A stretch of 38,978 nt of DNA from a virus (Duplodnaviria > Caudoviricetes): positions 1-38,978 of the IMG/VR virus record IMGVR_UViG_3300040733_000052; one strand, written 5' to 3'. Below the pieces are notes generated by a model. It was given only the letters and a program-made list of their open reading frames with translations. It searched no databases and was not told where the DNA came from. This document shows positions 102 to 20,888 of the stretch, one piece after another. The position numbers and the translations under genes were made by a program. Every line of letters starts with the position of its first letter. The stretch's first letter is position 1.

Positions 102-1031
102 ATGACTTACATCGATTTGATCAATCGTTTCTGGAATATGGACATAGAATATCATTTTACCGCTTCCGAAACAAGGCTATATTTCAAACTGCTGGAAATA
201 GCGAATAGAGTAGGGTGGAAAGTGTCGGTGTCCGTGCCTAATATTCGGTTGGTTTCAGATGTCGGTATCTCGGAAAAGCACCTCATATCAAGTCGGCAAC
301 GCCTTCACGACGTTAATCTTGTAGTATGTATAAAAGGAAACACGCGAACCGCATGTAAGTATATCGTTGATCCGGATAATTTCAAAGCCGATTACTTACC
401 TAATAAGGTAATAAAGGTAAGTAATACTGAACCTGGTAATAACGATTCCTTACCTTATGCGTACGATGAGGTAAGTAATCAGGTAAGTAATCAGGTAAGT
501 AATCAGGTAAGTAATCAGGTAAGTAATCAGGTAAACATATATAAGAATAGACTAGAAGAGACTAGAGAAGAGAAGACTTTATCTTCTTCTCTTTTAGATG
601 AGAAAGATTCTAAAAGAGAAGAAGAACACATAGGATCCGAAGGGAAAAAAAGTTTACCTGCCAAACCCGCCACTCCGTATCAAGATATATACGAAATGTT
701 TATATCCATCTGCTCAACGTTGCCTCGAATTCAAGCCCCGTCTTTGTGGGCTAAGTCTCGACGAGAAGCCGTAAACGCCCGATGGCGTGAGCATCCGGAT
801 GTTGGATTCTTTTACGATCTATTTCACCGGGTGCATGATTCCGATTTCCTGTCCGGCCGAGTTAAGTCGTTCAAAGCGGGATTCGATTGGATATTCAAAC
901 CAACGAATATGCAAAAGATTATCGAGGGCAACTACGAAAACCAGGACGAAAAACAACAGAAGTTTGCGGGGCTCAAGGCGTTCTGGGAAGAAGCAAAAGT
1001 GGAGGAGATGGTTAAAAATGGCATTAAGTAA
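102..1031 (+). CDS. Phage replication initiator (N-terminal winged-HTH, DnaD/replisome-organizer-like)
   Basis: ATG at 102 follows GGAGGTGA. N-terminal HTH-like region (LYFKLLEIANRVGW...RQRL), internal (VSNQ)n repeat encoded by iterons, C-terminal 'AGFDWIFKPTNMQKIIEGNY' typical of phage initiators. Followed by a loader-like gene. Confidence 0.85.
   Translation: MTYIDLINRFWNMDIEYHFTASETRLYFKLLEIANRVGWKVSVSVPNIRLVSDVGISEKHLISSRQRLHDVNLVVCIKGNTRTACKYIVDPDNFKADYLPNKVIKVSNTEPGNNDSLPYAYDEVSNQVSNQVSNQVSNQVSNQVNIYKNRLEETREEKTLSSSLLDEKDSKREEEHIGSEGKKSLPAKPATPYQDIYEMFISICSTLPRIQAPSLWAKSRREAVNARWREHPDVGFFYDLFHRVHDSDFLSGRVKSFKAGFDWIFKPTNMQKIIEGNYENQDEKQQKFAGLKAFWEEAKVEEMVKNGIK
390..534. repeat. Iteron cluster / probable replication origin inside the initiator gene
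   Basis: AGGTAAGTAATC x5 perfect tandem copies at 469-528 plus a partial copy to 534. Exact inverted copy GATTACTTACCT at 390-401. 11/12 matches at 415-426 (direct) and 444-455 (inverted). Confidence 0.8.
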
Positions 1032-3200: not shown

Positions 3201-3755
3201 ATGAAGGTACTATGCGTTCCGGATTATGCGTTTGAATATGAGCTGATAAGAGAACATATTAACGGCATGGGGCTTTACCTCGATAGAGATGTTTTAGAAT
3301 CGAACTTCGCATATCGGCAAATTATTCCGTATGTCGTTTTGAGAGACTCTGAAGGAAAAATCCTTACTTATCAGCTTCAAAATACGAGTAACGAAGAACG
3401 ATTGTGCGGACAATATACGATCGGAATAGGCGGTCATGTGGAAGAAAAGGACGGAACCGGTTGGATGGCTGTTCACAAAGCAAGCGAGAGAGAAATACGA
3501 GAAGAAATCGGCGTGATACCGCTTCTGATGGATGGCAAAATAACGATAATACGATTGCATGAAACGGAAGTAGACCGCGCTCACCTCGGGATTGGGATGG
3601 TATTAAAAAAATGGGCTGGAAAAATTATACCTTCGAAAGAAGTCCCGAGTTGGGAATGGAAAACTATCGAAGAGTTAAAGGCCATGGAGCTCGAAACATG
3701 GGCGAGATACATGCTCGAATATCGTTTAGGTTACGAGGAAAATAAAGAGAGGTGA
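3201..3755 (+). CDS. NUDIX hydrolase
   Basis: Nudix box 'GGHVEEKD...ASEREIREEIG' and the 'RQIIPYVV' motif. Confidence 0.85.
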   Translation: MKVLCVPDYAFEYELIREHINGMGLYLDRDVLESNFAYRQIIPYVVLRDSEGKILTYQLQNTSNEERLCGQYTIGIGGHVEEKDGTGWMAVHKASEREIREEIGVIPLLMDGKITIIRLHETEVDRAHLGIGMVLKKWAGKIIPSKEVPSWEWKTIEELKAMELETWARYMLEYRLGYEENKER

Positions 3756-4628: not shown

Positions 4629-5513
4629 ATGGGGGTGACAACAACGATATATGTGGGATTGGAACGCTCAGAAAAACAAAAAATAATACAGGAATATTTG
4701 CAAAACAACAAAGTTCGAAAGGTATTTGTAATTAGCTCTGAGAAAAGCGAATACGACACAGGGTATATAGAAAAAGAAAGCTTGGGTTGGTCTGATGTCA
4801 TTATGTATAAGTTTTTTTATCGATTGCTCGAGGAAATAGATTCAACATGTCTTGTTGTGATAGATGAAATGATGAGAACTCAGAACAGAAGCGAATTAAC
4901 GTATAACTGTGCGCATCATTATCTTAATCAAACCCCACATCGACTCATATTTGAGTATTTTCCTTTTATTGAACAAAAAGACGATTTTATGATTTTGCTT
5001 GATTTTCAAGATAAGCCTAAATATCGTGGAAAAGGCTTCTCGTGGGAGATGTTAAAAGAGCAAGATTTAAGAATAAAAAAAACAGAAATGAAGTTCGAAA
5101 TACTGCCGGTTCAAATAAGCACTAAAGAAAAGGCAGAATATTTTCAAAAGAAAGAAGCGTTGTTTGCCGAACTCGGTAGTAAAAACCCAGACACGATCCC
5201 GCGGAATCTTCACGTTTTTGTTGGGAAATACAAAAAGAGGAACTTGTATACCGGGAAAATTTACGTTGCGAGAAACTCCCGTTTTAATATGCTTAATGTG
5301 ATTACGTATAAAAATAAGTCAACTATTTCAGCGATTATTATCGACTTTCCGCACAGAAGAATAGACTTCAACGATTATCTCAAACGAGTGACGCCCCCCA
5401 TAGTATCTTTTTTATCTACCGGTTTGCCCGTTGACAATTATTATGCTGAAAGTTTTCGAAAATGGCTCGAGCGATTGGAGGAGTTTTATGATCAGGCAAG
5501 TATATCAGAATGA
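4629..5513 (+). CDS. Hypothetical protein, possibly a degenerate SF2 helicase/ATPase-like fold
   Basis: Walker-B-like 'CLVVIDEMMR' and only a vestigial Walker A ('YVGLERSEK'). Overlaps the ibrA-like gene. Confidence 0.45.
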   Translation: MGVTTTIYVGLERSEKQKIIQEYLQNNKVRKVFVISSEKSEYDTGYIEKESLGWSDVIMYKFFYRLLEEIDSTCLVVIDEMMRTQNRSELTYNCAHHYLNQTPHRLIFEYFPFIEQKDDFMILLDFQDKPKYRGKGFSWEMLKEQDLRIKKTEMKFEILPVQISTKEKAEYFQKKEALFAELGSKNPDTIPRNLHVFVGKYKKRNLYTGKIYVARNSRFNMLNVITYKNKSTISAIIIDFPHRRIDFNDYLKRVTPPIVSFLSTGLPVDNYYAESFRKWLERLEEFYDQASISE

Positions 5514-6606
5514 AACCGTGTTAAGCGCCGCAAAACGTAGGATTAGCTATGTGTTTGATGAACGCGAAAATATCGTTGTGTCTATAAGCGGGGGCAAAGA
5601 CTCAACGGTATTGGCGCACCTTGCCCTTAAAGAAGCGAACAGACGTGGAAGAAGGATTGGACTGTTTTTTCTCGATGAAGAAGTAGTCTATGATAGCACT
5701 ATACGCCAAATAGAGTATCTTATGAACTTGTATCCTACCAATACCATTAAATTATGGTATCAGATAGAGTTTAGGCTGACGAATGCAACGAGTTTGAAAG
5801 AGGGGCAGTTGATTTGCTGGGAGGCCGGAAAGCATAAATTATGGATGAGGCCTAAAAATAATGAATCAATACAGCATAAATCATGGGATAAAGAAAAAGA
5901 AACAATAAGAGACAAAAACAAAGGTTTTGGGTTTTATGATGTGCTCGATAATTTTCAGAACAATCGGCCAAACACTGCGTTTATGGTTGGATTGCGGGCG
6001 GTTGAAAGCATGAACAGATGGCGTGCTGTTTCTAAAAACCCTGGATACAAGAGGTGCTTTTGGAGTACAAAACTTCAGAACGGGAGTGCTGCTTTCTATC
6101 CGATATATGACTTTAATTTTCACGATATTTGGAAGTACATTTACGATGAAGGGCTCAAATACAGCAAAATTTACGATTATATGTGGAAAAAGGGGACACC
6201 TTTGAACGAGATTAGAGTGTCAAGCTTGATTCATGAAAAATCGTTTAAAGCGCTGGTTGATCTTCCGGAGTTCGAACCAAAAACATATGATCGGCTTCTT
6301 AAAAGAATCGATGGCATTTCTATTGGAGCTATTTATGGGAAAGATCGCGCAATGTTAAAAGCCCAAAAGCTGCCTAAAAACTATCGCAACTGGCGTGAGT
6401 ACAGAAATTTTCTTTTGGTAACTTATCCGGATGCTGATAAGAAAACCATATTCGAAAAAAGGTTTGCGCATCAGCTTGATAATGATTATGTTGCTCGGCA
6501 ACAGTGCAGGCAACTCATTCTTAACGACTATGAAAATAACCTGCCAATTGATAACAAACCAGATCCAAGATCCGAGGAAATAGAAAAATGGAGGGAGATA
6601 TTATGA
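5488..6606 (+). CDS. ibrA: IbrA-like PAPS-reductase-family (PP-loop, DUF3440-type) protein
   Basis: ATG at 5488 after GGAGGAG. 'VVSISGGKDS' PP-loop, 'FLDEE', 'VGLRAVESMNR', 'YPIYDF...DIWKY', 'RVSS', 'CRQLILNDY'. Followed by a ParB-like gene as in ibrAB loci. Confidence 0.8.
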   Translation: MIRQVYQNETVLSAAKRRISYVFDERENIVVSISGGKDSTVLAHLALKEANRRGRRIGLFFLDEEVVYDSTIRQIEYLMNLYPTNTIKLWYQIEFRLTNATSLKEGQLICWEAGKHKLWMRPKNNESIQHKSWDKEKETIRDKNKGFGFYDVLDNFQNNRPNTAFMVGLRAVESMNRWRAVSKNPGYKRCFWSTKLQNGSAAFYPIYDFNFHDIWKYIYDEGLKYSKIYDYMWKKGTPLNEIRVSSLIHEKSFKALVDLPEFEPKTYDRLLKRIDGISIGAIYGKDRAMLKAQKLPKNYRNWREYRNFLLVTYPDADKKTIFEKRFAHQLDNDYVARQQCRQLILNDYENNLPIDNKPDPRSEEIEKWREIL

Positions 6607-7127
6607 TCCTTGAAAGCAAAATAGGCCCGATTCCGGCTCCGTGCATGGATGTGGTTTTAATCCCGGCAACCAAGCTGAGAGCCAATAACTATAACCCGAA
6701 CAACGTCCCCAAAAATAATATGGAACTCTTAAAACAATCCATCATCGATAACGGCTTTTGCTTTCCGATAGTCACGATCTATGATAAAGAGGTTGACGAG
6801 TACGTTATCATTGATGGATTCCATAGATATACCATACTTACGGAATACCTGGGAATTTCCACTATACCCATCGTGGTATTAGATCATGACATTAACAAAA
6901 GGATGGCAGCAACTATACAATTCAACCGCGCGCGAGGAGTACATCAAGTAGAGCTTATGGGCGACTTGGTACAAGCCTTGATAAGTCAGGGTATGAGCGA
7001 TGAGGACATCAGCAAACACCTCGGGATGGAAATGGAGGAAGTATATCGGTTAAAACAAATTACTGGTATCGCCGAATTGTTCAAAAACCAGATATATTCT
7101 AAGGCTTGGGAAATGGAGGAAGCTTAA
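6603..7127 (+). CDS. ibrB: IbrB-like ParB/Srx-domain protein
   Basis: 'ANNYNPN', 'GFCFPIV', 'IIDGFHR', 'MAATIQFNRARG.H' and a C-terminal HTH ('ISKHLGMEMEEVYRL'). ATGA overlap with ibrA. Confidence 0.85.
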   Translation: MILESKIGPIPAPCMDVVLIPATKLRANNYNPNNVPKNNMELLKQSIIDNGFCFPIVTIYDKEVDEYVIIDGFHRYTILTEYLGISTIPIVVLDHDINKRMAATIQFNRARGVHQVELMGDLVQALISQGMSDEDISKHLGMEMEEVYRLKQITGIAELFKNQIYSKAWEMEEA

Positions 7128-7762
7128 TGGCGGACTGGAATTATGGCGATTCTTTCAAACGTTATCCAATACCCGATGATGGATGGTGTTTTGAAGATGG
7201 CAGCATGATAAAAACACATAACATATTTGATCCTCTGCCGGAATTTATGAAACAATCCGATATCATATTTACAGATTCACCATGGAATCTCGGAAATCTC
7301 AATACATTCTATACTAAAGCACAAAGAACAGACTACCAAAAGAGTTTTGAGACATTTTATAAACGCTTATTTGAATGCCTTAACGAAATAAATCCGAATC
7401 AAGCCTTTTTGGTTATAGGGAAGCAATACCTCGCGGAATACATAATCGAAACGAAAAACATGTTCAAACATACGACGTTTTATAATAGCACTTATTATCA
7501 CAAACGAAATAACGTATGTTATATAGTCCACGGTTCCAATCTAACATCGAAACGTTTACCGTTGGAGTACGCAGATGAAGAAGATGCGATAAGGTGGATA
7601 TGCGATAACATTAGTTTCTCGTGTATCGGAGATATATGTATGGGGCGTGGAAGCGTTGGGTATTATGCCTGGAAAGCCGGGAAAAAGTTTGTCGGTACAG
7701 AGTTAAATCACAAGCGCCTTTCCGTATTAGTGGAAAGAATTAAAAACGCCGGGGCGAAGTAA
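7127..7762 (+). CDS. Compact amino-DNA-methyltransferase-like protein (beta-class motif order)
   Basis: Motif IV variant 'IIFTDSPWN' precedes SAM-binding motif I 'DICMGRGSVG...GTELN'. TAATG coupling to ibrB. Confidence 0.7.
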   Translation: MADWNYGDSFKRYPIPDDGWCFEDGSMIKTHNIFDPLPEFMKQSDIIFTDSPWNLGNLNTFYTKAQRTDYQKSFETFYKRLFECLNEINPNQAFLVIGKQYLAEYIIETKNMFKHTTFYNSTYYHKRNNVCYIVHGSNLTSKRLPLEYADEEDAIRWICDNISFSCIGDICMGRGSVGYYAWKAGKKFVGTELNHKRLSVLVERIKNAGAK

Positions 7763-7763
7763 T

Positions 7764-8519
7764 ATGTTGGTCGCGAGCTTTTTGTATTCGATTTCCGGAT
7801 CTCAAAACGAACACGCTAACATAACTTGTAATGTCAATGATATTTGCGCATTATGCGGTTCAAAAATCTCCGAAGGGATCTTAAAGAAAAAGATCATATC
7901 CGAAGCCTTTACAAACTGGGACTTTATATCCCAATCCGATTACCTTTGCGTTCCTTGCGCAAACATCCTTAAAGGCGAACTTGCGCGCTCAATTCGCACG
8001 TCTTCGTTCTACGCAACTGCCGGAGGAATACAGCTGTTCAAATTTCACGATCTATCGCATATGCTCTTCATGAAGCATGATACGCCGTTCGTATTGTGTT
8101 TTACGAGCAGCTTCAAAAAACACAATGCGTTCCGGGCCGTGCTCAACGATTCTGATGAGCGGTTTACGGTGCGCTGGGAAGACCGTGCGATAGAGGTTGA
8201 CCGGAATGCATGTACGTCGCTTTTCCGGGGATGCGTGCATCTGTATTTCGGAGGATTTACAAAGGAAGAGATATCCAATAACACGTTCGCGCTTCACCGG
8301 TGCATGAAGTACGGTATCGGACGATTCAACGAGCACTACGAGATTATCAAGCCTTATTTCCGGACAAATCTGCTGGAATTTATATGTGAAGCCCTACCAT
8401 CCAGGAAACGGGAAACATACGTTAAGATAATTGCTGAACGCGAAAAATCCGCTAAAGCAGCGAAGGGAGCGAGTAATGGAAGAAATACGGGAACTAACAA
8501 ACGAGGAAAAAGCGGTTAG
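7764..8519 (+). CDS. csf1: Type IV CRISPR large subunit Csf1 (Cas8-like, Zn finger)
   Basis: CALCG...'AFTNWD'...CVPC zinc finger and 'PFVLCFTSSFKKH' motif; lies upstream of a small helical gene and csf2. Confidence 0.75.
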   Translation: MLVASFLYSISGSQNEHANITCNVNDICALCGSKISEGILKKKIISEAFTNWDFISQSDYLCVPCANILKGELARSIRTSSFYATAGGIQLFKFHDLSHMLFMKHDTPFVLCFTSSFKKHNAFRAVLNDSDERFTVRWEDRAIEVDRNACTSLFRGCVHLYFGGFTKEEISNNTFALHRCMKYGIGRFNEHYEIIKPYFRTNLLEFICEALPSRKRETYVKIIAEREKSAKAAKGASNGRNTGTNKRGKSG

Positions 8520-8880
8520 ACTGGCCTATTTTCTTTGGAAAAGCATTGATCACGAGGGGATGAGTGCTTCCCGCCGAATGGGGATATGGGATGAGTTCCA
8601 GCAAAAAATAATATATGCGGCAATGCAACAAACACCGGAAGCAATGATCGAGGTGTTTGCCAAGAAGTTTTCGATCATGAGTTACAAACATAGCGCTATT
8701 CTTGCGTTCATGACGCCAGAGGCAGTTGATCAAATCCGCCGGAATCCGAGGAAAATTGTACTGATGTTACGCGCAACTATTGAAGAGGAAAAGGTGGAGT
8801 ACAAGGCGAAAGTAGAGGAAAGAGCAGAGAAAGAAAAAGCTAAAGAACGGATGAAGCTCATGAACTCGGATTGGGAGTAA
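8476..8880 (+). CDS. cas11: Type IV-B small subunit (Cas11-like)
   Basis: Small all-helical protein between csf1 and csf2 ('LWKSID...IWDEFQQKIIYAA'); start MEEIRE at 8476 after GGGAG. Assignment is mainly positional. Confidence 0.6.
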   Translation: MEEIRELTNEEKAVRLAYFLWKSIDHEGMSASRRMGIWDEFQQKIIYAAMQQTPEAMIEVFAKKFSIMSYKHSAILAFMTPEAVDQIRRNPRKIVLMLRATIEEEKVEYKAKVEERAEKEKAKERMKLMNSDWE

Positions 8881-8893
8881 TTCATCAAAGGAG

Positions 8894-9706
8894 ATGAAAA
8901 GAATGAATAAAAGTTACACGTTCCGATACGAAGCGTTGACTCCAATCAGTCACGGGGATGAAGGCGCGCTATCGACAATTATGCCTTTCCGAAGGCAGCG
9001 CGTGTACTGGGAAGGCGAATATTACGATATCCCGGTTGTGAGCGGGAATTCATTCCGGGGTGGAGCACTGCGGCGGAAAGGCATGAAACGTTTCTGCGAT
9101 CTCCTTGGACTCAAGAAAGAAAGTCTGCGGGCGAAGCCTTACTATCTGCTATTCAACGGTGGCGCGTTATCGAAGGGAGATTCGGATGTCTCTATTGGTG
9201 CGAAGAAAGAGTTCAGGAGGATTCTCCCGCTCGTATCCATCTTCGGCGGTGGTATCGACAACATGCTCCTTGAAGGGCGGATGCAGATCGGATTCATCTA
9301 CCCAATAGGCAAAGAAACGCAGGCAATTACGGGGATCCACTCGGATCGAAGCGTGTTTGAATTTTTGAACACTGTATTTTATACGCGCCGAGATGACTAT
9401 ATTCCGGAAGACCCCACGATGAAAGAGATGACGGTACAGATGAAGTATGAATGCGAGATTATGATACCGGGTACCAAATTCATCCAGCAGGTATCCGTTA
9501 CAACCGATGAGGAGCTCGAACTATCCGCGTTCGGCTTTTTGATGAAAATATTCCAGGAAGAACCGCATATCGGGTCTAAAGCGAACGTTGGGCACGGGTT
9601 CGTAACGTTCGAATCGAGCGGAAAACTTCCTGATAGTAAACCGTTCGAAGACTATGTAGAGAATAACAAAGAGATGATCATATCCTATATACGAAACTTA
9701 GCATAA
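8894..9706 (+). CDS. csf2: Type IV CRISPR backbone Csf2 (Cas7-family RAMP)
   Basis: RAMP motifs 'EALTPISHG', 'IPVVSGNSFRG', 'LLFNGG', 'PLVSIFGG', 'GRMQIG', 'TRRDD' and G-rich loop 'IGSKANVGHG'. Confidence 0.9.
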   Translation: MKRMNKSYTFRYEALTPISHGDEGALSTIMPFRRQRVYWEGEYYDIPVVSGNSFRGGALRRKGMKRFCDLLGLKKESLRAKPYYLLFNGGALSKGDSDVSIGAKKEFRRILPLVSIFGGGIDNMLLEGRMQIGFIYPIGKETQAITGIHSDRSVFEFLNTVFYTRRDDYIPEDPTMKEMTVQMKYECEIMIPGTKFIQQVSVTTDEELELSAFGFLMKIFQEEPHIGSKANVGHGFVTFESSGKLPDSKPFEDYVENNKEMIISYIRNLA

Positions 9707-9719
9707 GGAGGTGATATGA

Positions 9720-9812
9720 GTGGCTGAAAGAATTCTTAAATCAGGGAAGCTAACCCCTAACGCCAAATTCAAAGCAGCCAGTAGCGGTGGCGGAACAGTA
9801 ACAGGGAGATAG
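9720..9812 (+). CDS. Unannotated 30-aa basic peptide (MAERILKSGKLTPNAKFKAASSGGGTVTGR)
   Basis: AGGAGGT Shine-Dalgarno 7 nt before GTG 9720. The ORF fills the csf2-cysH gap, and its TAG lies 2 nt before the cysH ATG. Confidence 0.6.
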   Translation: MAERILKSGKLTPNAKFKAASSGGGTVTGR

Positions 9813-9814
9813 CT

Positions 9815-10582
9815 ATGGTCTCAAATGCAGAACAAAAGGAAGAAGACTTGTTATATGCGAAATTACCTATTTATAGAAAGCGGATAAATCAGGCCCGGGA
9901 GTACGTCTCCCGGTGTCTGGCCGCATCACATAAACCATGTGTATCCTTTTCCGGGGGTAAAGATTCCTCCGTATTACTTTCCATGGTTATCGAGCAACGT
10001 CCTGACGCGATGGTCGTTATGTATGATTCCGGCGCCGAGTTCCAGGAGACATTCGATATTATCGAACAAACGGAAAAGCGTTTAGGTATAACGATATACA
10101 TCCTTGAGCCGGAAATGAGTATGCTGGAGCTCAAAGCCTATTCGGATGCGTACGGGCCGATACATATTAGCGAGTACAAACGGGTGTTGATAGAGGATCC
10201 GTCGAGGCGAATAGCAAAAGAATACGGATGCGATATGTTCTTTATCGGATTACGAAAGGAAGAAAGCAATCATCGCCTGTTTGCCTTGTCACGGATGAAA
10301 GAACCGTACTATTACAGCGAGAAGATGAAATTTTTTATGGCTTACCCACTTATGAATCTCAAGGGGGAAGACGTCTACGCATACATTGCCGAAAACGATC
10401 TACCGTTGCATCCTTACTATACCGATCCTCGTATACACGTTGAACGGAATCTTCGGAGAGTATCTGGGTGGGCTGGGGATACAGCGGCGAGTCAAGGGCG
10501 GTGGTTGTGGCTCAAACTAACGCATCCGGGATTGTATGAACGGCTGTATGCAGCCGATGAAAGGGTTGGGTGGTATATATGA
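9815..10582 (+). CDS. cysH: Type IV-B-associated CysH-like PAPS-reductase-family protein
   Basis: 'VSFSGGKDS', 'YDSGAEF', 'IGLRKEES..R', 'YPL...DVYAYI...LPLHPYY'. Embedded between csf2 and csf3. Confidence 0.85.
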   Translation: MVSNAEQKEEDLLYAKLPIYRKRINQAREYVSRCLAASHKPCVSFSGGKDSSVLLSMVIEQRPDAMVVMYDSGAEFQETFDIIEQTEKRLGITIYILEPEMSMLELKAYSDAYGPIHISEYKRVLIEDPSRRIAKEYGCDMFFIGLRKEESNHRLFALSRMKEPYYYSEKMKFFMAYPLMNLKGEDVYAYIAENDLPLHPYYTDPRIHVERNLRRVSGWAGDTAASQGRWLWLKLTHPGLYERLYAADERVGWYI

Positions 10583-11289
10583 GGAACTTTAGAATAGAAG
10601 CTTTATTAATATCACCCGTAATTATTTATGAACCCCTGCATCTAGATTCGCTCTTATCATATGCGAAGAACATTATTCAAGGGCGAAGAGAAATCCCGCA
10701 ACGGATGGAAGACGCTACAATATTCGATGATTTACCGTTAGCAAGGGTTAACGACGTATGGTGTTCTAGCGCCGGCTTCGTTGTCGGGCGTGATTCGAAA
10801 GAAATAATTCACAAAAAATTCGAATATGCTTACGAAAACTTGATCGACTTCGAAGGTAAACGAGAAGTGATTTTTACGGGAGGACTATATTTTAAGAACA
10901 ATGCCAGACCTTTGATTGTTACAACGGCTGAGAAGATCATTTGGTTTGCAGTAGGGAATCAATCGGAGGTTAAAAAAATGCTGGATACGGTAATTCAAAT
11001 AGGGCGCGGGAGGGCTGTCGGGTACGGGGCAATCAAAGAATGGCGATATTACGGGATAGCAAAAGACAAGTCGTTTTTCTCTGGAAACAAAGCCATGCGA
11101 AAGATACCGATAGAAATGGCGCATTGCATAACATCGAAAATAGAACGTTGCGGATATAAACCCCCATATTGGGACAGAAGTACATATAAACCATGCTACG
11201 TGCCAATTTGGAAGCATCGTGAGCCGAAAGAGTTTGAGGCCTATACTGAAGAGTATTTCTGTTTGAGTGAGGAGAGTGAGATCGCATGA
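10579..11289 (+). CDS. csf3: Csf3 (Cas5-family RAMP), copy 1
   Basis: 'LISPV...LHLDSLL', 'VWCSS', 'IWFAVG', G-loop 'IGRGRAVGYG', C-terminal 'YKPPYWD'. ATGA overlap with cysH. Confidence 0.85.
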   Translation: MRNFRIEALLISPVIIYEPLHLDSLLSYAKNIIQGRREIPQRMEDATIFDDLPLARVNDVWCSSAGFVVGRDSKEIIHKKFEYAYENLIDFEGKREVIFTGGLYFKNNARPLIVTTAEKIIWFAVGNQSEVKKMLDTVIQIGRGRAVGYGAIKEWRYYGIAKDKSFFSGNKAMRKIPIEMAHCITSKIERCGYKPPYWDRSTYKPCYVPIWKHREPKEFEAYTEEYFCLSEESEIA

Positions 11290-11987
11290 TAAATCTTAGG
11301 ATAGAAGCGACACTGCAATCGCCAATTGTATTATATGACCCAATATTTTTAGATAGCATTTTAACGTTAGCAGTACATATTAGCCAAGGGCGGTATGAAT
11401 CCCCTATTAACTTCGAAGATATCATATACGTGGATATCCCGCTCGAAAAGTGCAGAGATGTCTGGTGCGCCAGCGCTGGGATGTTCGTCTCTCGGGAATC
11501 GAAAGAGGTCTGGCACAAGAAATTCGCATCGGAATACGAAGAGATGATAGATTTCGCGGGGAATAAAGAAGCAATAGTAACCGGTAACGGGCCGTATAGG
11601 TCATATGCTATGCCCCTGATAGTTAGTTCTACCCCGAGAGTAATTTGGTTTGCGCGGGGGGATAAAGTAGAAGTAGAAAAGTTGTTAACCTATATCACGG
11701 CATTAGGTAAGAAGCGTGCGATCGGGTACGGTCAGATTGCGAAATGGGTAGTAACCGAAATAGAGAATGACCGCTCGATAACGATGCCAGGTGGAGTATC
11801 AAGGCATATACCTACAGATTATGGGGATTATCCTAACAATAAACGAAGCGTATCGTATAAACCTCCATACTGGGATCGCAGATATTTCGTGGAATGTTAT
11901 CTCCCGCGGTGGCGGTTCCAGAGTGCCGAAGAATTCGAAGCGTATACCGGCGAACCCGCGGAATTAGCTCGGCACTGTGGCGCGTAA
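11286..11987 (+). CDS. csf3: Csf3 (Cas5-family RAMP), copy 2
   Basis: 'LQSPI...IFLDSIL', 'VWCAS', 'IWFARG', 'LGKKRAIGYG', 'YKPPYWD'. Colinear paralog of the preceding gene. Confidence 0.85.
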   Translation: MINLRIEATLQSPIVLYDPIFLDSILTLAVHISQGRYESPINFEDIIYVDIPLEKCRDVWCASAGMFVSRESKEVWHKKFASEYEEMIDFAGNKEAIVTGNGPYRSYAMPLIVSSTPRVIWFARGDKVEVEKLLTYITALGKKRAIGYGQIAKWVVTEIENDRSITMPGGVSRHIPTDYGDYPNNKRSVSYKPPYWDRRYFVECYLPRWRFQSAEEFEAYTGEPAELARHCGA

Positions 11988-11996
11988 GGAATCCTT

Positions 11997-12266
11997 ATGG
12001 TCTTTGTTACAGACCACGCAATACGCCGGTTCATAGAGCGAATCGCGCCGTACATCACATATGATCAGGCTAAGGAGATCATACTTGACGATCTCAAAAC
12101 GATACAACGTGAAGACGTTAAACAGGCGAAAAGCAACTATTATGTGCGCGTGCGATCGAAGTGGTTTGGGAAGCACGGCACACCATATAAGTATCGGCTG
12201 TTTATTGCTCCGCAAGAAAAGACTCCAGAAAAGGGCTTCCTCATAGTTACGATCCACCGAGGATAA
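11997..12266 (+). CDS. Small basic protein with an HAxxRxxER motif (DUF4258/RelE-like fold, possible RNase)
   Basis: 'VTDHAIRRFIERI' at the N-terminus and 'LIVTI' C-terminal strand; AAGGA RBS. Confidence 0.5.
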   Translation: MVFVTDHAIRRFIERIAPYITYDQAKEIILDDLKTIQREDVKQAKSNYYVRVRSKWFGKHGTPYKYRLFIAPQEKTPEKGFLIVTIHRG

Positions 12267-12290
12267 AGAGGCGCGAAAGCGCCTTTTTTT
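12265..12290 (+). terminator. Rho-independent terminator ending the accessory operon
   Basis: AGGCGC-GAAA-GCGCCT stem-loop followed by a T run. Confidence 0.9.
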
Positions 12291-12415
12291 ATTACATTGC
12301 ATACGTAATAGTGCGAAATACCGCGGAAAAACGAGTATATTTTAGTATCGTTTAGTATAGCATGTATAACTTATAACTATCAACTATTACTATCGATAAT
12401 CATTAGGATATAGCA

Positions 12416-17704: not shown

Positions 17705-17830
17705 ATGTATTTCGTAGTGTTTGTTTTAAGCGCCGGGTTCGGTCTGGCATTAGGGTTCTACGCCGGGTTGACTGCAAAGGATACGGTTAAGAAAGAGCGT
17801 GGGGAAACATGCAGGAAAAGGCGCCGTTAG
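17705..17830 (+). CDS. Small membrane protein, 41 aa (MYFVVFVLSAGFGLALGFYAGLTAKDTVKKERGETCRKRRR); not in ORF track
   Basis: GGGAG RBS, one TM helix plus a basic tail; overlaps the GT2 start. Confidence 0.5.
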   Translation: MYFVVFVLSAGFGLALGFYAGLTAKDTVKKERGETCRKRRR

Positions 17831-18714
17831 TATCTATCCTAATCAACAACTATAACTACGGGCGCTATATTGCGCGTTGTATCGATTCTATGCTTGAGCA
17901 AACGTATCCGAACATCGAGATTATCGTATATGACGATTGTTCGACGGATAACTCCCTGGAAATACTATCACGGTATGACAGCAAAATAACGGTTATTGTC
18001 TCGGAGATAAACGCCGGTCGGGTGTTCGAAGGAACGAACCGGATGATAGAGCAGGCGCGCGGGAAGTACATATACACATACGACTCGGACGACTGGTTAG
18101 AGCCGAACACTATTGAAGAATCGGAAAAGATACTCGAATCGGATCCCAAAATCGATTACGTGTACTCCGCGGCGTATGTGCACTACGATGACGGGCGATG
18201 CACGGAAATCTGGCCCGTAAGGGATTATACAGTCGCGGAAGCCGTCCGGGAAACGTTTCAAAGGCAAGGCAGTGGGGTTATCGCAACAAAAGGCTTATTC
18301 CGGGCATCTTTCCTGAAAAAGCATGGATACATCCAATACCTCGGCAGTGATGTAGATACCGTATCGTTTCTCCATTACCTGAAGCACGGGCTGCGAACGA
18401 AAGCGTTGAATGTTCCGTTGAGACATTACCGGGTGCATTCTTCAAGCCATACGCGCTACGTTGCGTTGAGGGTGAAAGCTATCAATTCAATCCTGAGATA
18501 CATCGTAGCCAACTTCGACCCGCGAATATACCTGCCGGAAATGCCAGAGAACATGCGGCCTAAATACCTGAATCGTTTCTTTCTCGAAGTTGCAGACAAC
18601 TATCTTAACAACAGATTACCGGCGTTTGTAGCGCATCACGTAACGCGAGAAGAGATGCTGCACTGCTGCGCGCCGTTGTTCGAATCAGCACGAATCTATT
18701 CGAAAGGAGCATGA
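17809..18714 (+). CDS. Glycosyltransferase family 2 (GT-A)
   Basis: 'PLVSILINNYNYGRYIARCIDSMLEQTYPNIEIIVYDDCSTD' and DxD motif 'YDSDD'. Confidence 0.95.
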   Translation: MQEKAPLVSILINNYNYGRYIARCIDSMLEQTYPNIEIIVYDDCSTDNSLEILSRYDSKITVIVSEINAGRVFEGTNRMIEQARGKYIYTYDSDDWLEPNTIEESEKILESDPKIDYVYSAAYVHYDDGRCTEIWPVRDYTVAEAVRETFQRQGSGVIATKGLFRASFLKKHGYIQYLGSDVDTVSFLHYLKHGLRTKALNVPLRHYRVHSSSHTRYVALRVKAINSILRYIVANFDPRIYLPEMPENMRPKYLNRFFLEVADNYLNNRLPAFVAHHVTREEMLHCCAPLFESARIYSKGA

Positions 18715-20888
18715 ACATTATGTTAGTTAGCGTTGCAATGATTGTAAGGGACGAGGAGAAAAACATAGAAAGAGCGCTTCGAAGCGTTCTACCGGTAGCG
18801 GATGAGATAGTGATACTTGACACAGGATCCGCCGATCGGACAAAAGAGATTATTACTGGACTCAATGAACCAAAAATCAAACTTAGCGATCACGAATGGA
18901 AAGACGATTTCAGTGAAGCGAGAAACGCGTCGATTGCGTTATGTACCGGCGATTGGATATTTGTCTACGACGGAGATGAAGAGCTTACCGAAGAGGCGCA
19001 GAAAGAATTACGCCCGTTGCTCGAATCGCAACCCCCAGAAGTAAACACTGTCTCGATGATTACAAGAAACATCATTACGGATACGCTAAGTGACACACTC
19101 ACACTGCCAAGGATATTTCGACGCGGCACGATTGCTTATAAATTCTCGGTACATAACCATCCGCAATACGAGCAGGAAGTCATCACAACGAACCTGACAT
19201 CGAAACACTACGGATATCAATGGACTCCGGAACTGCGTGAGAAGAAACGTAAACGTCTCCTGTCGATGATGGAAAAGATACTAAAAGACGGGACTCTCAA
19301 TGAGATGGAACAGCTCTACTACAAAGCCCAATACTATAAGACCCTACTGGTATGTGAACGAAAAGAGGAAGCGTACGCTTACGGCAAGGCCTTGTTCTCA
19401 GAGATACAGGCTGGGAAACCCATCCCGGTAATGATGCATGATATGTTTATTCTCCTGGGGCTTCAAGCGCTCGAATACTGCGATCCGGACGTCATGCGTT
19501 CGTGTATCCAGGCTGCGCGTGGATTGTCTCCAGATTGCCCGGATTCGTTCATTATCGAAGAACTGCTGTACAACACACTCAAACAACCCCTTAATACGAA
19601 TAAGGCGTTCGATGCGTACATGAGCAAAATGGAAACGTACGACAAGAGCGAATGCCCATTCACATTACAGTATGAAAAGTACAACGACATAGCAAAGATT
19701 ATCGGCGCGAAAGCCGCAGTCGAAACCGGGATAACCAGTCAAGGATTCGGTATTCTCCGGAGTGCAAAGCCAACAACCATTACTACGTGGGCGGTGGATG
19801 AACTTATAACGACTCTCGCGAAAACACAACACGTAAAAGTGCTCAAACGATTCGAACCGGCTGTTCTCAAGCTTGCGGATCGCGAACGGATCAATCTTTC
19901 CCCGTACTACTCACGGTTGTATAGCGAACTCAATCACGAAATGGCGACAAAGCGGAAAAAGATAGCGATTATCGTTGCGCCAGGACTTGCTTCGTTCCTT
20001 CACGGCGCCCGGCACGAACTTGCCCTGGATTATATCGTGCAAACGGCAATGGTTAGCGATATAGAACATGCAAAGAAATTCATCGAGTGGGCGGATCTCG
20101 TATGGTACGAATTTGGAAACGAACTCGCGATAGCCGGTACAAACAAATACCCGGCTAAGAAGACTATCATTCGCGTACACGCGTACGAAGCGTACAGCGG
20201 ATTCTTGAAACTAATTAACTATAACAACGTAGATTGCATGATGTTCGAAGCCAATCATATCTACGAGCTTGCGAAAGATATAGTGCCTGCGGATAAAGTT
20301 GCGCTCGTACCAATGGGCGTGGATACGAAGAAGTTTGTTTACGGGCAGCATGGAGCCGGTTACAAGATCGCTTACGCCGGACATATCAACGCGCTTAAAA
20401 ACCCGATGATGATGGTACAAATCATGAGCCAGCTCGTGCGATTGGATTCCCGATATGAATTGTATTGGGCCGGTGAGATCCAAGATATTAGGCTATGGCA
20501 ATACCTCACGCATATCATTACACAACTCGGTTTAGAACGGAACATTCACTTCGTAGGGTACCAAAAAGACATGAACGCTTTCTTCGAAGACAAAAACTAC
20601 TTCCTCTCGACATCCTACACCGAAGGAACAGGAATGGCAATCCTTGAAGCCGAAAGTAAAGGGATTAAGCCAATCATCCATCACTTCTGGGGCGCCACTG
20701 ATATATACCCCAATGAATATCTCTACAACACCGTGGATGAAGCGGTAAGGATGATCCTTGAAGATAGATACGATTGTGAAGCTTACAGGTTACACGCCGA
20801 AGGCCACGGCGAAGCAACACAACTACAAGCAATCAACGAAATAATCAAGAATCTATTAGCTGAACCACAGGAGGTGAAAGTGGTGTGA
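18711..20888 (+). CDS. Bifunctional glycosyltransferase: GT2 + TPR-like helical region + GT4-like (GT-B)
   Basis: N-terminal 'SVAMIVRDEE...DTGSAD.T...DFSEARN...DGDE'; C-terminal 'PMGVD', 'KNP', 'STSYTEGTGMAILEA' (ExxxxxxxE). Confidence 0.9.
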   Translation: MNIMLVSVAMIVRDEEKNIERALRSVLPVADEIVILDTGSADRTKEIITGLNEPKIKLSDHEWKDDFSEARNASIALCTGDWIFVYDGDEELTEEAQKELRPLLESQPPEVNTVSMITRNIITDTLSDTLTLPRIFRRGTIAYKFSVHNHPQYEQEVITTNLTSKHYGYQWTPELREKKRKRLLSMMEKILKDGTLNEMEQLYYKAQYYKTLLVCERKEEAYAYGKALFSEIQAGKPIPVMMHDMFILLGLQALEYCDPDVMRSCIQAARGLSPDCPDSFIIEELLYNTLKQPLNTNKAFDAYMSKMETYDKSECPFTLQYEKYNDIAKIIGAKAAVETGITSQGFGILRSAKPTTITTWAVDELITTLAKTQHVKVLKRFEPAVLKLADRERINLSPYYSRLYSELNHEMATKRKKIAIIVAPGLASFLHGARHELALDYIVQTAMVSDIEHAKKFIEWADLVWYEFGNELAIAGTNKYPAKKTIIRVHAYEAYSGFLKLINYNNVDCMMFEANHIYELAKDIVPADKVALVPMGVDTKKFVYGQHGAGYKIAYAGHINALKNPMMMVQIMSQLVRLDSRYELYWAGEIQDIRLWQYLTHIITQLGLERNIHFVGYQKDMNAFFEDKNYFLSTSYTEGTGMAILEAESKGIKPIIHHFWGATDIYPNEYLYNTVDEAVRMILEDRYDCEAYRLHAEGHGEATQLQAINEIIKNLLAEPQEVKVV

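What the first reader, a model, noticed from the sequence alone, without database searches (positions are those of the whole stretch)
4629..12290. Phage-encoded operon joining an IbrAB/methylase module to an array-less type IV-B CRISPR effector
Seen: 12 ORFs that overlap or are separated by 13 nt or less, closed by one terminator: helicase-like, IbrA-like PP-loop protein, IbrB/ParB, MTase-like, csf1, cas11, csf2, 30-aa peptide, cysH-like, csf3, csf3, small RNase-like. Known: type IV-B loci (Csf1/Cas11/Csf2/Csf3 + CysH-like) occur on mobile elements, generally lack cas6, cas1/2 and arrays, and have no established function. PAPS-reductase-family proteins include DndC of DNA phosphorothioation, and DndB is ParB-related. 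Inference: the operon may be one machine, e.g. an RNA-guided nucleic-acid modification or anti-defence system in which a Cascade-like RNP positions adenylating/sulfur-transfer and methylating enzymes. It sits in the accessory slot between the late activator and terS.
Basis: partly seen in the sequence, partly recalled or inferred. Interest (0 to 1): 0.92.

Follow-up and report, generated by a model that had tools for sequence, protein, structure and literature searches.

The report
Phage type IV-B with swappable enzymes
A phage carries a guide-less type IV-B CRISPR-Cas gene set joined to a four-gene enzyme cassette that in related phages sits beside a DNA motor instead, and to a small conserved peptide gene, which suggests these Cas proteins likely serve as a scaffold for enzymes predicted to chemically modify nucleic acid.

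Summary
The gene run is real: 12 tightly packed ORFs, csf1-cas11-csf2-csf3-csf3 and two PP-loop enzymes by HMM, a conserved terminator, no array or known RNA found. The link to the Ibr cassette is more than chance but not obligate. Of 32 well-flanked IbrA clusters, 22 sit beside an SNF2 motor, 8 beside csf genes, 1 both, 1 neither; 9 of 44 well-flanked Csf2 clusters carry ibrAB; sister phages hold a minimal IV-B at the same slot. ORF1 is an SNF2-fold protein without Walker A. New here: the 30-aa peptide is under protein-level selection and belongs to a Gly-rich family found just before cysH (9 of 109 genes), in two relatives followed by a C39-like peptidase; and 7 Csf2 clusters replace cysH with a possibly TGT/DpdA-like enzyme. 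Best reading (about 50%): Csf is a scaffold that presents nucleic acid, likely phage DNA before packaging, to interchangeable modifying enzymes. Sulfur transfer and RNA guidance are unsupported. The scan noted the IV-B/IbrAB/SNF2 link before on other DNA (three findings); I found it in no paper searched.

The parts
4629..5513 (+). ORF1: degenerate SNF2-fold protein without Walker A, likely a non-catalytic nucleic-acid-binding adaptor of the Ibr cassette
   Evidence: AlphaFold2 pLDDT 93; Foldseek best hits are SNF2 ATPases, E 4e-7, TMq about 0.6; Walker A-like motif in 0 of 81 aligned members; fused to an SNF2 in L302; 467 homologues
5488..6606 (+).
   Evidence: phrog_2302 1e-82; PP-loop kept, no invariant Cys in 9 aligned
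6603..7127 (+). IbrB-like ParB/Srx-fold protein
   Evidence: ParB_N 5e-7; SerK-like 2.5e-6, far below cut-off; phrog_2159 8e-59
7127..7762 (+). small amino-methyltransferase-like protein; family motif DPPW, DSPW here; SAM-binding motif C-terminal
   Evidence: 1e-5, 26.0 bits against cut-off 26.7; alignment of 20
7764..8519 (+). csf1 with two CxxC pairs
8476..8880 (+). cas11 (type IV)
   Evidence: PADLOC 8.5e-8
8894..9706 (+). csf2 (Cas7)
9720..9812 (+). 30-aa Lys-rich peptide with Gly-rich C-terminus; member of a small-ORF family placed just before cysH
   Evidence: frame, RBS and stop kept in L002 with GTG to ATG start change; 13 synonymous against 11 non-synonymous codon changes; relatives in L020, L038, L090 and others
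9815..10582 (+). CysH-like PP-loop protein (CasCysH), no conserved Cys
   Evidence: PAPS_reduct 3e-26; model pLDDT 95; Foldseek best hits PAPS/APS reductase, CysD, FAD synthase; invariant columns
10579..11289 (+). csf3 (Cas5) copy a
   Evidence: 45% identical to copy b, closer than to any other lineage
11286..11987 (+). csf3 (Cas5) copy b; local duplication, seen in 1 of 98 Csf2 clusters
11997..12266 (+). 89-aa protein of unknown function; travels with the phage slot rather than the Ibr cassette
   Evidence: present in L173-L178, which lack Ibr genes; atlas structure hits to DUF4258/MqsR under the naming bar
12269..12292 (+). intrinsic terminator-like hairpin plus T run

Best explanation
The locus is an array-less type IV-B Cas gene set with a CysH-like enzyme, a small peptide and an ORF1-IbrA-IbrB-methylase cassette, and the Csf proteins likely act as a nucleic-acid-binding scaffold that would present the substrate, probably phage DNA late in infection, to interchangeable modifying enzymes, taking the place that an SNF2 motor holds in most Ibr cassettes. 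Shown: gene identities, folds of ORF1 and CasCysH, the SNF2-or-csf pattern, the swapping of enzyme genes on near-identical Csf2, selection on the peptide. Inferred: (1) Csf2/Cas11 form a filament on single-stranded nucleic acid with Csf1/Csf3 caps, as for the Mycobacterium IV-B complex; (2) CasCysH and IbrA use ATP to adenylate a phosphate or base (PP-loop, CysD/FAD synthase branch, no catalytic Cys), after which a nucleophile is attached, for CasCysH possibly from the co-encoded peptide; (3) IbrB activates or fuels the IbrA and methylase step, and ORF1 couples the cassette to whichever DNA-handling partner is present; (4) the mark protects packaged genomes from host nucleases.
For: IbrA search (best 80 of 168 confirmed loci; scan stopped at 37 of 64 parts): 63 clusters at 90% identity; of 32 with at least 6 kb on both sides, 22 SNF2 only, 8 csf only, 1 both, 1 neither (Fisher p 7e-6, not corrected for kinship). 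Csf2 is absent from 23 of 23 SNF2-type whole records (control 5 of 5). At least 7 label changes among 50 IbrA rows; six csf-linked IbrA rejected as one clade, p-AU 6e-10. ibrAB lies between csf genes in L009, L011, L043, L103, L106, L189, L295, L321 and others, and follows csf2 directly with no cysH in L043. Csf2 proteins 88-96% identical carry CysH alone (L185), CysH plus IbrAB (L189) or a third enzyme (L188). That third family excludes CysH in 15 of 15 loci and has weak TGT/DpdA likeness. Other inserts among 68 scanned gap ORFs include SpoU and class I methylases, GNATs, GT2s, a QueT transporter. Precedent: a phage ParB activates a post-replicative DNA dioxygenase on dsDNA only (PMC13229309, abstract).
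Against: No binding or activity data. 35 of 44 well-flanked Csf2 clusters lack ibrAB, and the full four-gene cassette was in 1 of those 44. Sister phages L173 and L178 hold a minimal IV-B in the same slot. Five of 11 csf-type records have an SNF2-family match somewhere in the record (L288 adjacent; L277, L296, L317, and L313 under cut-off, elsewhere), so the exclusion is local, not always genome-wide; the 100%-complete twin of the window has none. The window's pairing may share one origin with L260 and L264 (p-AU 0.21). The Ibr genes are lower in GC (0.36-0.42) than the csf genes (0.42-0.47), and this slot before terS gathers accessory genes anyway. The TGT/DpdA call failed Pfam (0 of 89), PDB sequence search and a DpdA profile (0 of 5 records). 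The solved IV-B complex holds RNA (PMC7937560 passages) and SpoU inserts point to RNA, so the substrate may not be DNA. Only 7 of 40 well-flanked csf2 loci showed a terminase hit, with a narrow profile.
Confidence: 0.5

Rival explanations
1. Two independent accessory cassettes, an Ibr DNA-modification cassette and an ordinary IV-B locus, share a swap-prone slot before the terminase and merely share a transcript.
For: Each half occurs mostly without the other; sister phages swap the slot content; GC differs; upstream genes are packed just as tightly.
Against: Does not explain why csf-linked Ibr cassettes lack the adjacent SNF2 (8 of 9 well-flanked), why ibrAB lands between csf genes in several lineages, or why 0 of 23 SNF2-type records carry csf2.
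Confidence: 0.25
2. A Cascade-like complex with a specific guide RNA (borrowed host crRNA or an unrecognised phage RNA) aims the enzymes at chosen sites, as an anti-defence or gene-silencing device.
For: Complete Csf1/Cas11/Csf2/Csf3 set; some related operons contain a cas6 (L111, L288, L295); a mini-array is reported in an archaeal virus IV-B (PMC10848311 passages); two Csf3 copies could read two RNA ends.
Against: No array, Rfam RNA or tRNA in the window, no spaced repeats in the twin record, no cas6 in this operon; the solved complex bound heterogeneous RNA.
Confidence: 0.12
3. CasCysH mainly modifies the small peptide, as in a ribosomal peptide pathway (double-Gly leader, peptidase, glycosyltransferase), and the product is a signal, inhibitor or assembly factor, with no nucleic acid modified.
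For: Gly-rich small ORF before 9 of 109 cysH genes against 0 of 135 csf2 and 0 of 78 cas11; invariant last 11 residues after a GG in L020 and L038; C39-like peptidase and GT2 right after cysH in those two.
Against: About 100 of 109 cysH genes have no such ORF; no C39-like hit in the window's twin (two-sequence profile); no transporter beside it; the Gly-rich rule was set after seeing the peptides.
Confidence: 0.09
4. A Dnd-like sulfur-transfer (phosphorothioation) system.
For: Weak DndC and SspD profile hits confined to PP-loop stretches; TtuA-type thiolases among fold matches; a short Gly-rich partner recalls sulfur carriers.
Against: No invariant Cys in CasCysH (90 sequences) or IbrA (9), while DndC has a Cys-bound Fe-S centre and a Cys dyad (PMC10853773 passages); no desulfurase or DndD/E in the operon; the peptide does not end in GG. 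PMC8175902 reached the same view.
Confidence: 0.04

Closest known systems
Subtype IV-B CRISPR-Cas (csf1-cas11-csf2-csf3 plus cysH-like; Mycobacterium sp. JS623 complex, PDB 7JHY)
   Same: Same five gene families, no array, no cas6/cas1/cas2/dinG in the operon, on a mobile element.
   Different: Duplicated csf3, a selected peptide gene before cysH, and a four-gene Ibr cassette in the same run; phage late region rather than plasmid.
SNF2-ORF1-IbrA-IbrB-methylase cassette of phages (IbrA/IbrB named in phage genome papers as prophage regulators)
   Same: Same four genes in the same order; IbrA up to 77% identical to SNF2-linked copies.
   Different: No SNF2 here or in the complete twin record; csf genes follow instead.
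Dnd/Ssp phosphorothioation (DndC/SspD with DndB)
   Same: PP-loop enzyme paired with a ParB-fold protein.
   Different: No conserved Cys, no desulfurase, no DndD/E; profile hits only to PP-loop stretches.
Phage post-replicative DNA modification with a ParB activator (5mYOX-ParB, PMC13229309)
   Same: ParB-fold protein without a clear DNA-binding domain beside a predicted modifying enzyme.
   Different: Enzymes here are PP-loop and methylase types; activity untested.
Type IV-A/IV-D (DinG or RecD helicase with an array)
   Same: Csf core working with an SF-family nucleic-acid motor fold.
   Different: ORF1 lacks Walker A; no array; here Csf appears to replace a motor rather than recruit one.

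Membership tests
Type IV-B CRISPR-Cas | csf2 (type IV Cas7), csf1, csf3 and cas11 genes together | tested here: met
Type IV-B CRISPR-Cas | adjacent cysH-like PP-loop gene without catalytic Cys | tested here: met
Type IV-B CRISPR-Cas | no array, cas6, cas1/2 or dinG | tested here: met
   no array in window or by a 14-mer spacing scan of the twin record; none of these genes among the 14 operon-region proteins; the twin's other 16 kb were not scanned for cas genes
Type IV-B CRISPR-Cas | assembles a Csf2/Cas11 ribonucleoprotein filament | not testable with these tools
   known for JS623 only
DndC / DNA phosphorothioation | conserved Cys for Fe-S centre and sulfur transfer | tested here: not met
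   definition from PMC10853773
DndC / DNA phosphorothioation | dndA, dndD, dndE partners in the operon | tested here: not met
PAPS/APS reductase (true CysH) | conserved C-terminal catalytic Cys | tested here: not met
   Cys only at 34, 42, 139 in CasCysH, none invariant; definition from PMC8175902
Active SNF2 ATPase (ORF1) | SNF2 two-lobe fold | tested here: met
Active SNF2 ATPase (ORF1) | Walker A motif | tested here: not met
   0 of 81 members
N6A/N4C amino-methyltransferase | catalytic D/N-P-P-Y/W motif and SAM-binding motif (motifs recalled) | tested here: inconclusive
   family consensus DPPW, window DSPW; SAM motif kept; Pfam score just under cut-off
Double-glycine-leader peptide pathway | GG-containing precursor with C39 peptidase | tested here: inconclusive
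   GG in the peptides; C39-like gene in L020 and L038 only, not in the window's twin
TGT/DpdA base-exchange enzymes (cysH-replacing ORF of related loci) | family profile match and TIM-barrel catalytic Asp motifs (motifs recalled) | tested here: inconclusive
   invariant DSG, D83, H-x-G, D196; atlas 0.94 to a cluster with 17% DpdA; phrog_887 E 0.04 and 1.2e-4 in 1 of 5 records; no Pfam, PDB or DpdA hit

The most novel reading that the evidence does not exclude
Type IV-B is a Cas7 filament repurposed as a universal loading platform for nucleic-acid hypermodification, with a plug-in enzyme slot (CysH-like, IbrAB, or a TGT/DpdA-like base exchanger); in this lineage CasCysH adenylates the nucleic acid and ligates a co-encoded, Gly-Gly-processed peptide to it, giving peptide-tagged phage DNA or RNA.
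Probability: 0.15. Interest if true: 0.93.

Novelty: new variant of a known kind. Interest (0 to 1): 0.72.

Why it matters
The function of type IV-B is an open question, and reviews name CasCysH as the key to it. This locus and its relatives supply three concrete handles: a candidate partner or substrate for CasCysH (the peptide), a natural substitution of Csf for an SNF2 motor in a modification cassette, and a second enzyme family that replaces CysH on near-identical Csf cores. Each turns 'unknown function' into a defined LC-MS or pull-down experiment, and a positive result would show a CRISPR effector reused as a nucleic-acid-modification scaffold.

Tried and rejected
Guide RNA: Rfam 0, tRNA/tmRNA 0, no array-like repeats; the region after the terminator aligns among sister phages as terminator plus promoter-like DNA. 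Expression: no RNA holder listed, which is no evidence either way. The wide structural search was busy and gave nothing. Programmed frameshift from peptide into cysH: rejected, the relative frame differs between the window and L002. Two merged IV-B loci as the source of two csf3: rejected, the copies are each other's closest relatives. Lasso-type precursor: no matching protease or recognition gene seen in the operon; not pursued. (single SNF2 protein against 5 records, 0 hits) had no positive control and missed matches that one search found, so it was set aside. Annotated phages: Csf2 matches only Skermania phage SPI1, all genes hypothetical; ORF1 and the cysH-replacing protein match none. Broad Csf2 alignments could not seed locus scans, so the locus sets are motif-biased samples. 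TGT/DpdA identity could not be confirmed.
Full report
Observation. The window is a phage record with replication genes upstream and terminase, portal and head genes downstream. Between 4629 and 12266 lie 12 ORFs on the plus strand with junctions of -44 to +13 nt. Profiles identify Csf1, Cas11, Csf2 and two Csf3, two PP-loop proteins of the PAPS reductase family, a ParB-fold protein and a methylase-like protein. A hairpin with a T run follows at 12269-12292 and is conserved in five related loci with one compensatory change. The genes upstream from 2771 are packed just as tightly, so packing alone does not make this block a unit. No array, Rfam RNA or tRNA was found, nor spaced repeats in a 54.9-kb record identical to the window.

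What the enzymes are. ORF1 folds confidently (pLDDT 93) and its best structural matches are SNF2 ATPases, yet 0 of 81 members have a Walker A-like motif; in L302 it is fused to a full SNF2. Distant ORF1 homologues also accompany the more remote IbrA loci. I read it as a non-catalytic adaptor (inference). CasCysH (pLDDT 95) matches PAPS/APS reductases, CysD and FAD synthase best and TtuA-type thiolases less well; neither it (90 sequences) nor IbrA (9) has an invariant Cys. That fits adenylation without sulfur chemistry, as PMC8175902 argued for CasCysH (passages). The methylase family has DPPW and a C-terminal SAM motif; the window has DSPW, so its activity is uncertain. The two csf3 genes are 45% identical, closer to each other than to other lineages, both intact in L002, and unique among 98 Csf2 clusters.

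Is the Ibr-csf link real? From the csf side: 162 csf2 loci form 98 clusters at 90%; 44 have at least 5 kb on both sides, and 9 of these carry ibrA and ibrB, several of a more distant IbrA type without detected ORF1 or methylase. From the Ibr side: the 80 best of 168 confirmed loci (a partial scan) plus the window form 63 clusters: 38 SNF2 only, 11 csf only, 1 both, 13 neither (one of these, L302, proved to be an SNF2 fusion; many others are cut short). Among the 32 with at least 6 kb each side: 22, 8, 1 and 1 (two SNF2 calls rest on short, weak ORFs). Six sampled neighbours were confirmed as SNF2 by Pfam. Csf2 was absent from 23 of 23 SNF2-type whole records (25 asked, 2 not held; control 5 of 5). 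The reverse is weaker: 5 of 11 csf-type records have an SNF2-family match somewhere, 1 of them adjacent; the window's complete twin has none. On the IbrA tree the label changes at least 7 times among 50 rows (13 clusters that were 'both' or 'neither' left out); on 24 chosen rows six csf-linked proteins are rejected as one clade (p-AU 6e-10), but the trio L002, L260, L264 is not (p 0.21). In several loci the cassette sits between csf genes (L106, L295, L321, L009, L011, L103). So the pairing arose more than once and goes with loss of the adjacent motor. It is not obligate: L173 and L178 share the window's flanking genes and terminator but hold a different, minimal csf1-cas11-csf2-cysH-csf3 set.

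The peptide. The 30-codon ORF keeps its RBS, frame and stop in L002 while the start changes from GTG to ATG; 17 of 30 base changes are at third positions, 13 codons synonymous and 11 not. Similar Lys-rich, Gly-tailed ORFs precede cysH in L020, L038 and L090; shorter or different Gly-rich ones in L084, L204, L219, L221, L223. In L090 the previous gene is csf3, and L019 and L020 share 96% identical Csf2 but only L020 has the peptide and its CysH type, so the peptide follows cysH, not csf2. L020 and L038 differ at 4 of the last 12 codons, all silently. A scan found a Gly-tailed small ORF before 9 of 109 distinct cysH genes (three are the window's close kin), 0 of 135 csf2, 0 of 78 cas11, 0 of 20 csf3, 0 of 23 ibrA, 0 of 12 ibrB and 4 of 101 csf1 (rule set after the fact; for L020 it picked an overlapping frame). 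The peptide-linked CysH proteins are only partly grouped on a quick tree. In L020 and L038 cysH is followed by a C39-like peptidase (PF03412 3e-5, over cut-off, in L038; Cys, His and Asp kept in both) and a GT2 weakly like an HMC glucosyltransferase. The window's twin has no such peptidase by a two-sequence profile. Binding could not be modelled.

The enzyme slot. In 15 of 15 csf loci (7 Csf2 clusters) that carry a 220-250-aa unknown protein, cysH is missing. A search for that family gave 13 viral loci: 7 were mapped and all sit in csf operons; the other 6 are records already mapped as such. The family has 181 homologues, invariant DSG, Asp, His-x-Gly and Asp columns (likeness to TGT motifs is recalled), a QueT transporter beside it in L027, and weak TGT/DpdA signals that Pfam, PDB and the DpdA profile did not confirm. 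It is a lead. Csf2 proteins 88-96% identical carry CysH, CysH plus IbrAB, or this protein.

Mechanism. The simplest account of these swaps is that the Csf complex does a general job, holding or opening nucleic acid, for whichever modifying enzyme is plugged in, and that the Ibr cassette can use it in place of SNF2. DNA is the likelier substrate (SNF2 partner, amino-methylase, position before terS, glucosyltransferase and DpdA-like inserts), RNA the alternative (the solved complex holds RNA; SpoU inserts). All chemical steps are inferred. I put this at 0.5, independent cassettes at 0.25, true RNA guidance at 0.12, peptide-only chemistry at 0.09 and sulfur transfer at 0.04.

Literature. I saw passages of PMC8175902, PMC10848311, PMC12669027, 10.1101/780106 (94), PMC7937560, PMC8813620, PMC12704722, PMC10853773 and 10.1101/270033 (142), and the abstract and outline of PMC13229309. 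They establish IV-B on plasmids, prophages and viruses, its tie to cysH, and proposals of nucleic-acid modification; a figure legend in 10.1101/270033 lists an N6 methylase and its text an ADP-ribosyltransferase-family neighbour. Searches listed no paper whose title, abstract start or read passages link IV-B to IbrAB, SNF2 exchange, a peptide or DpdA. Supplements were not read and may list such neighbours; subscription papers are not held. Three earlier notes of this scan report the IV-B/IbrAB/SNF2 link on other DNA; I tested that claim here. Look-ups for the peptide, this sequence and the cysH replacement returned nothing.

Verdict. A true type IV-B locus and a new variant of it. Interest 0.72.

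Noticed in passing
L027 3069-3752, L007, L012, L013, L044, L188, L200, L333, L334, L339: A 220-250-aa family replaces cysH in IV-B operons (15 of 15 loci lack cysH); weak TGT/DpdA likeness; QueT transporter next to it in L027.
   Followed up: partly
L038 10820-13499 and L020 10817-12849: Peptide, cysH, C39-like peptidase and GT2 glycosyltransferase between csf2 and csf3; the last 11 peptide residues are invariant between the two.
   Followed up: partly
L302 7756-10026: SNF2 helicase fused to an ORF1 homologue in one 756-aa frame.
   Followed up: yes
L004 9998-15474; also L279, L281, L290, L304: Tandem duplication of ORF1-ibrA-ibrB (or ibrA-ibrB) behind an SNF2, without csf genes.
   Followed up: partly
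L111, L288, L295: cas6-family genes inside phage IV-B operons; arrays not looked for.
   Followed up: no
L062, L067, L096, L047, L056, L071, L106, L317, L241, L019, L039: Other inserts in IV-B operons: SpoU methylase, class I methylase (Pfam hit for L071 only), GNAT, dual-specificity phosphatase, solute symporter, HD and PD-(D/E)XK proteins.
   Followed up: no
L049, L064, L092, L106, L117 and P0079, P0100 and similar: Csf2 frames of 400-480 aa with an N-terminal extension, probably cas11-csf2 fusions.
   Followed up: no
L173 2759-3115, L178 520-876: Sister phages have a 118-aa unknown gene where the window has the Ibr cassette.
   Followed up: no
window 17809-20888: Two glycosyltransferase genes (301 and 725 aa) between head morphogenesis and head protease genes.
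   Followed up: no
window 454-546: 12-nt tandem repeats inside the replication initiator gene, likely origin iterons.
   Followed up: no
window 3201-3755: NUDIX hydrolase upstream of the operon, also in sister phage L173.
   Followed up: no
L005 (KR011061.1, Skermania phage SPI1) 5843-9476: An isolated phage whose csf2, csf3 and cysH-like genes are annotated as hypothetical; a possible source of virion DNA for modification analysis.
   Followed up: partly
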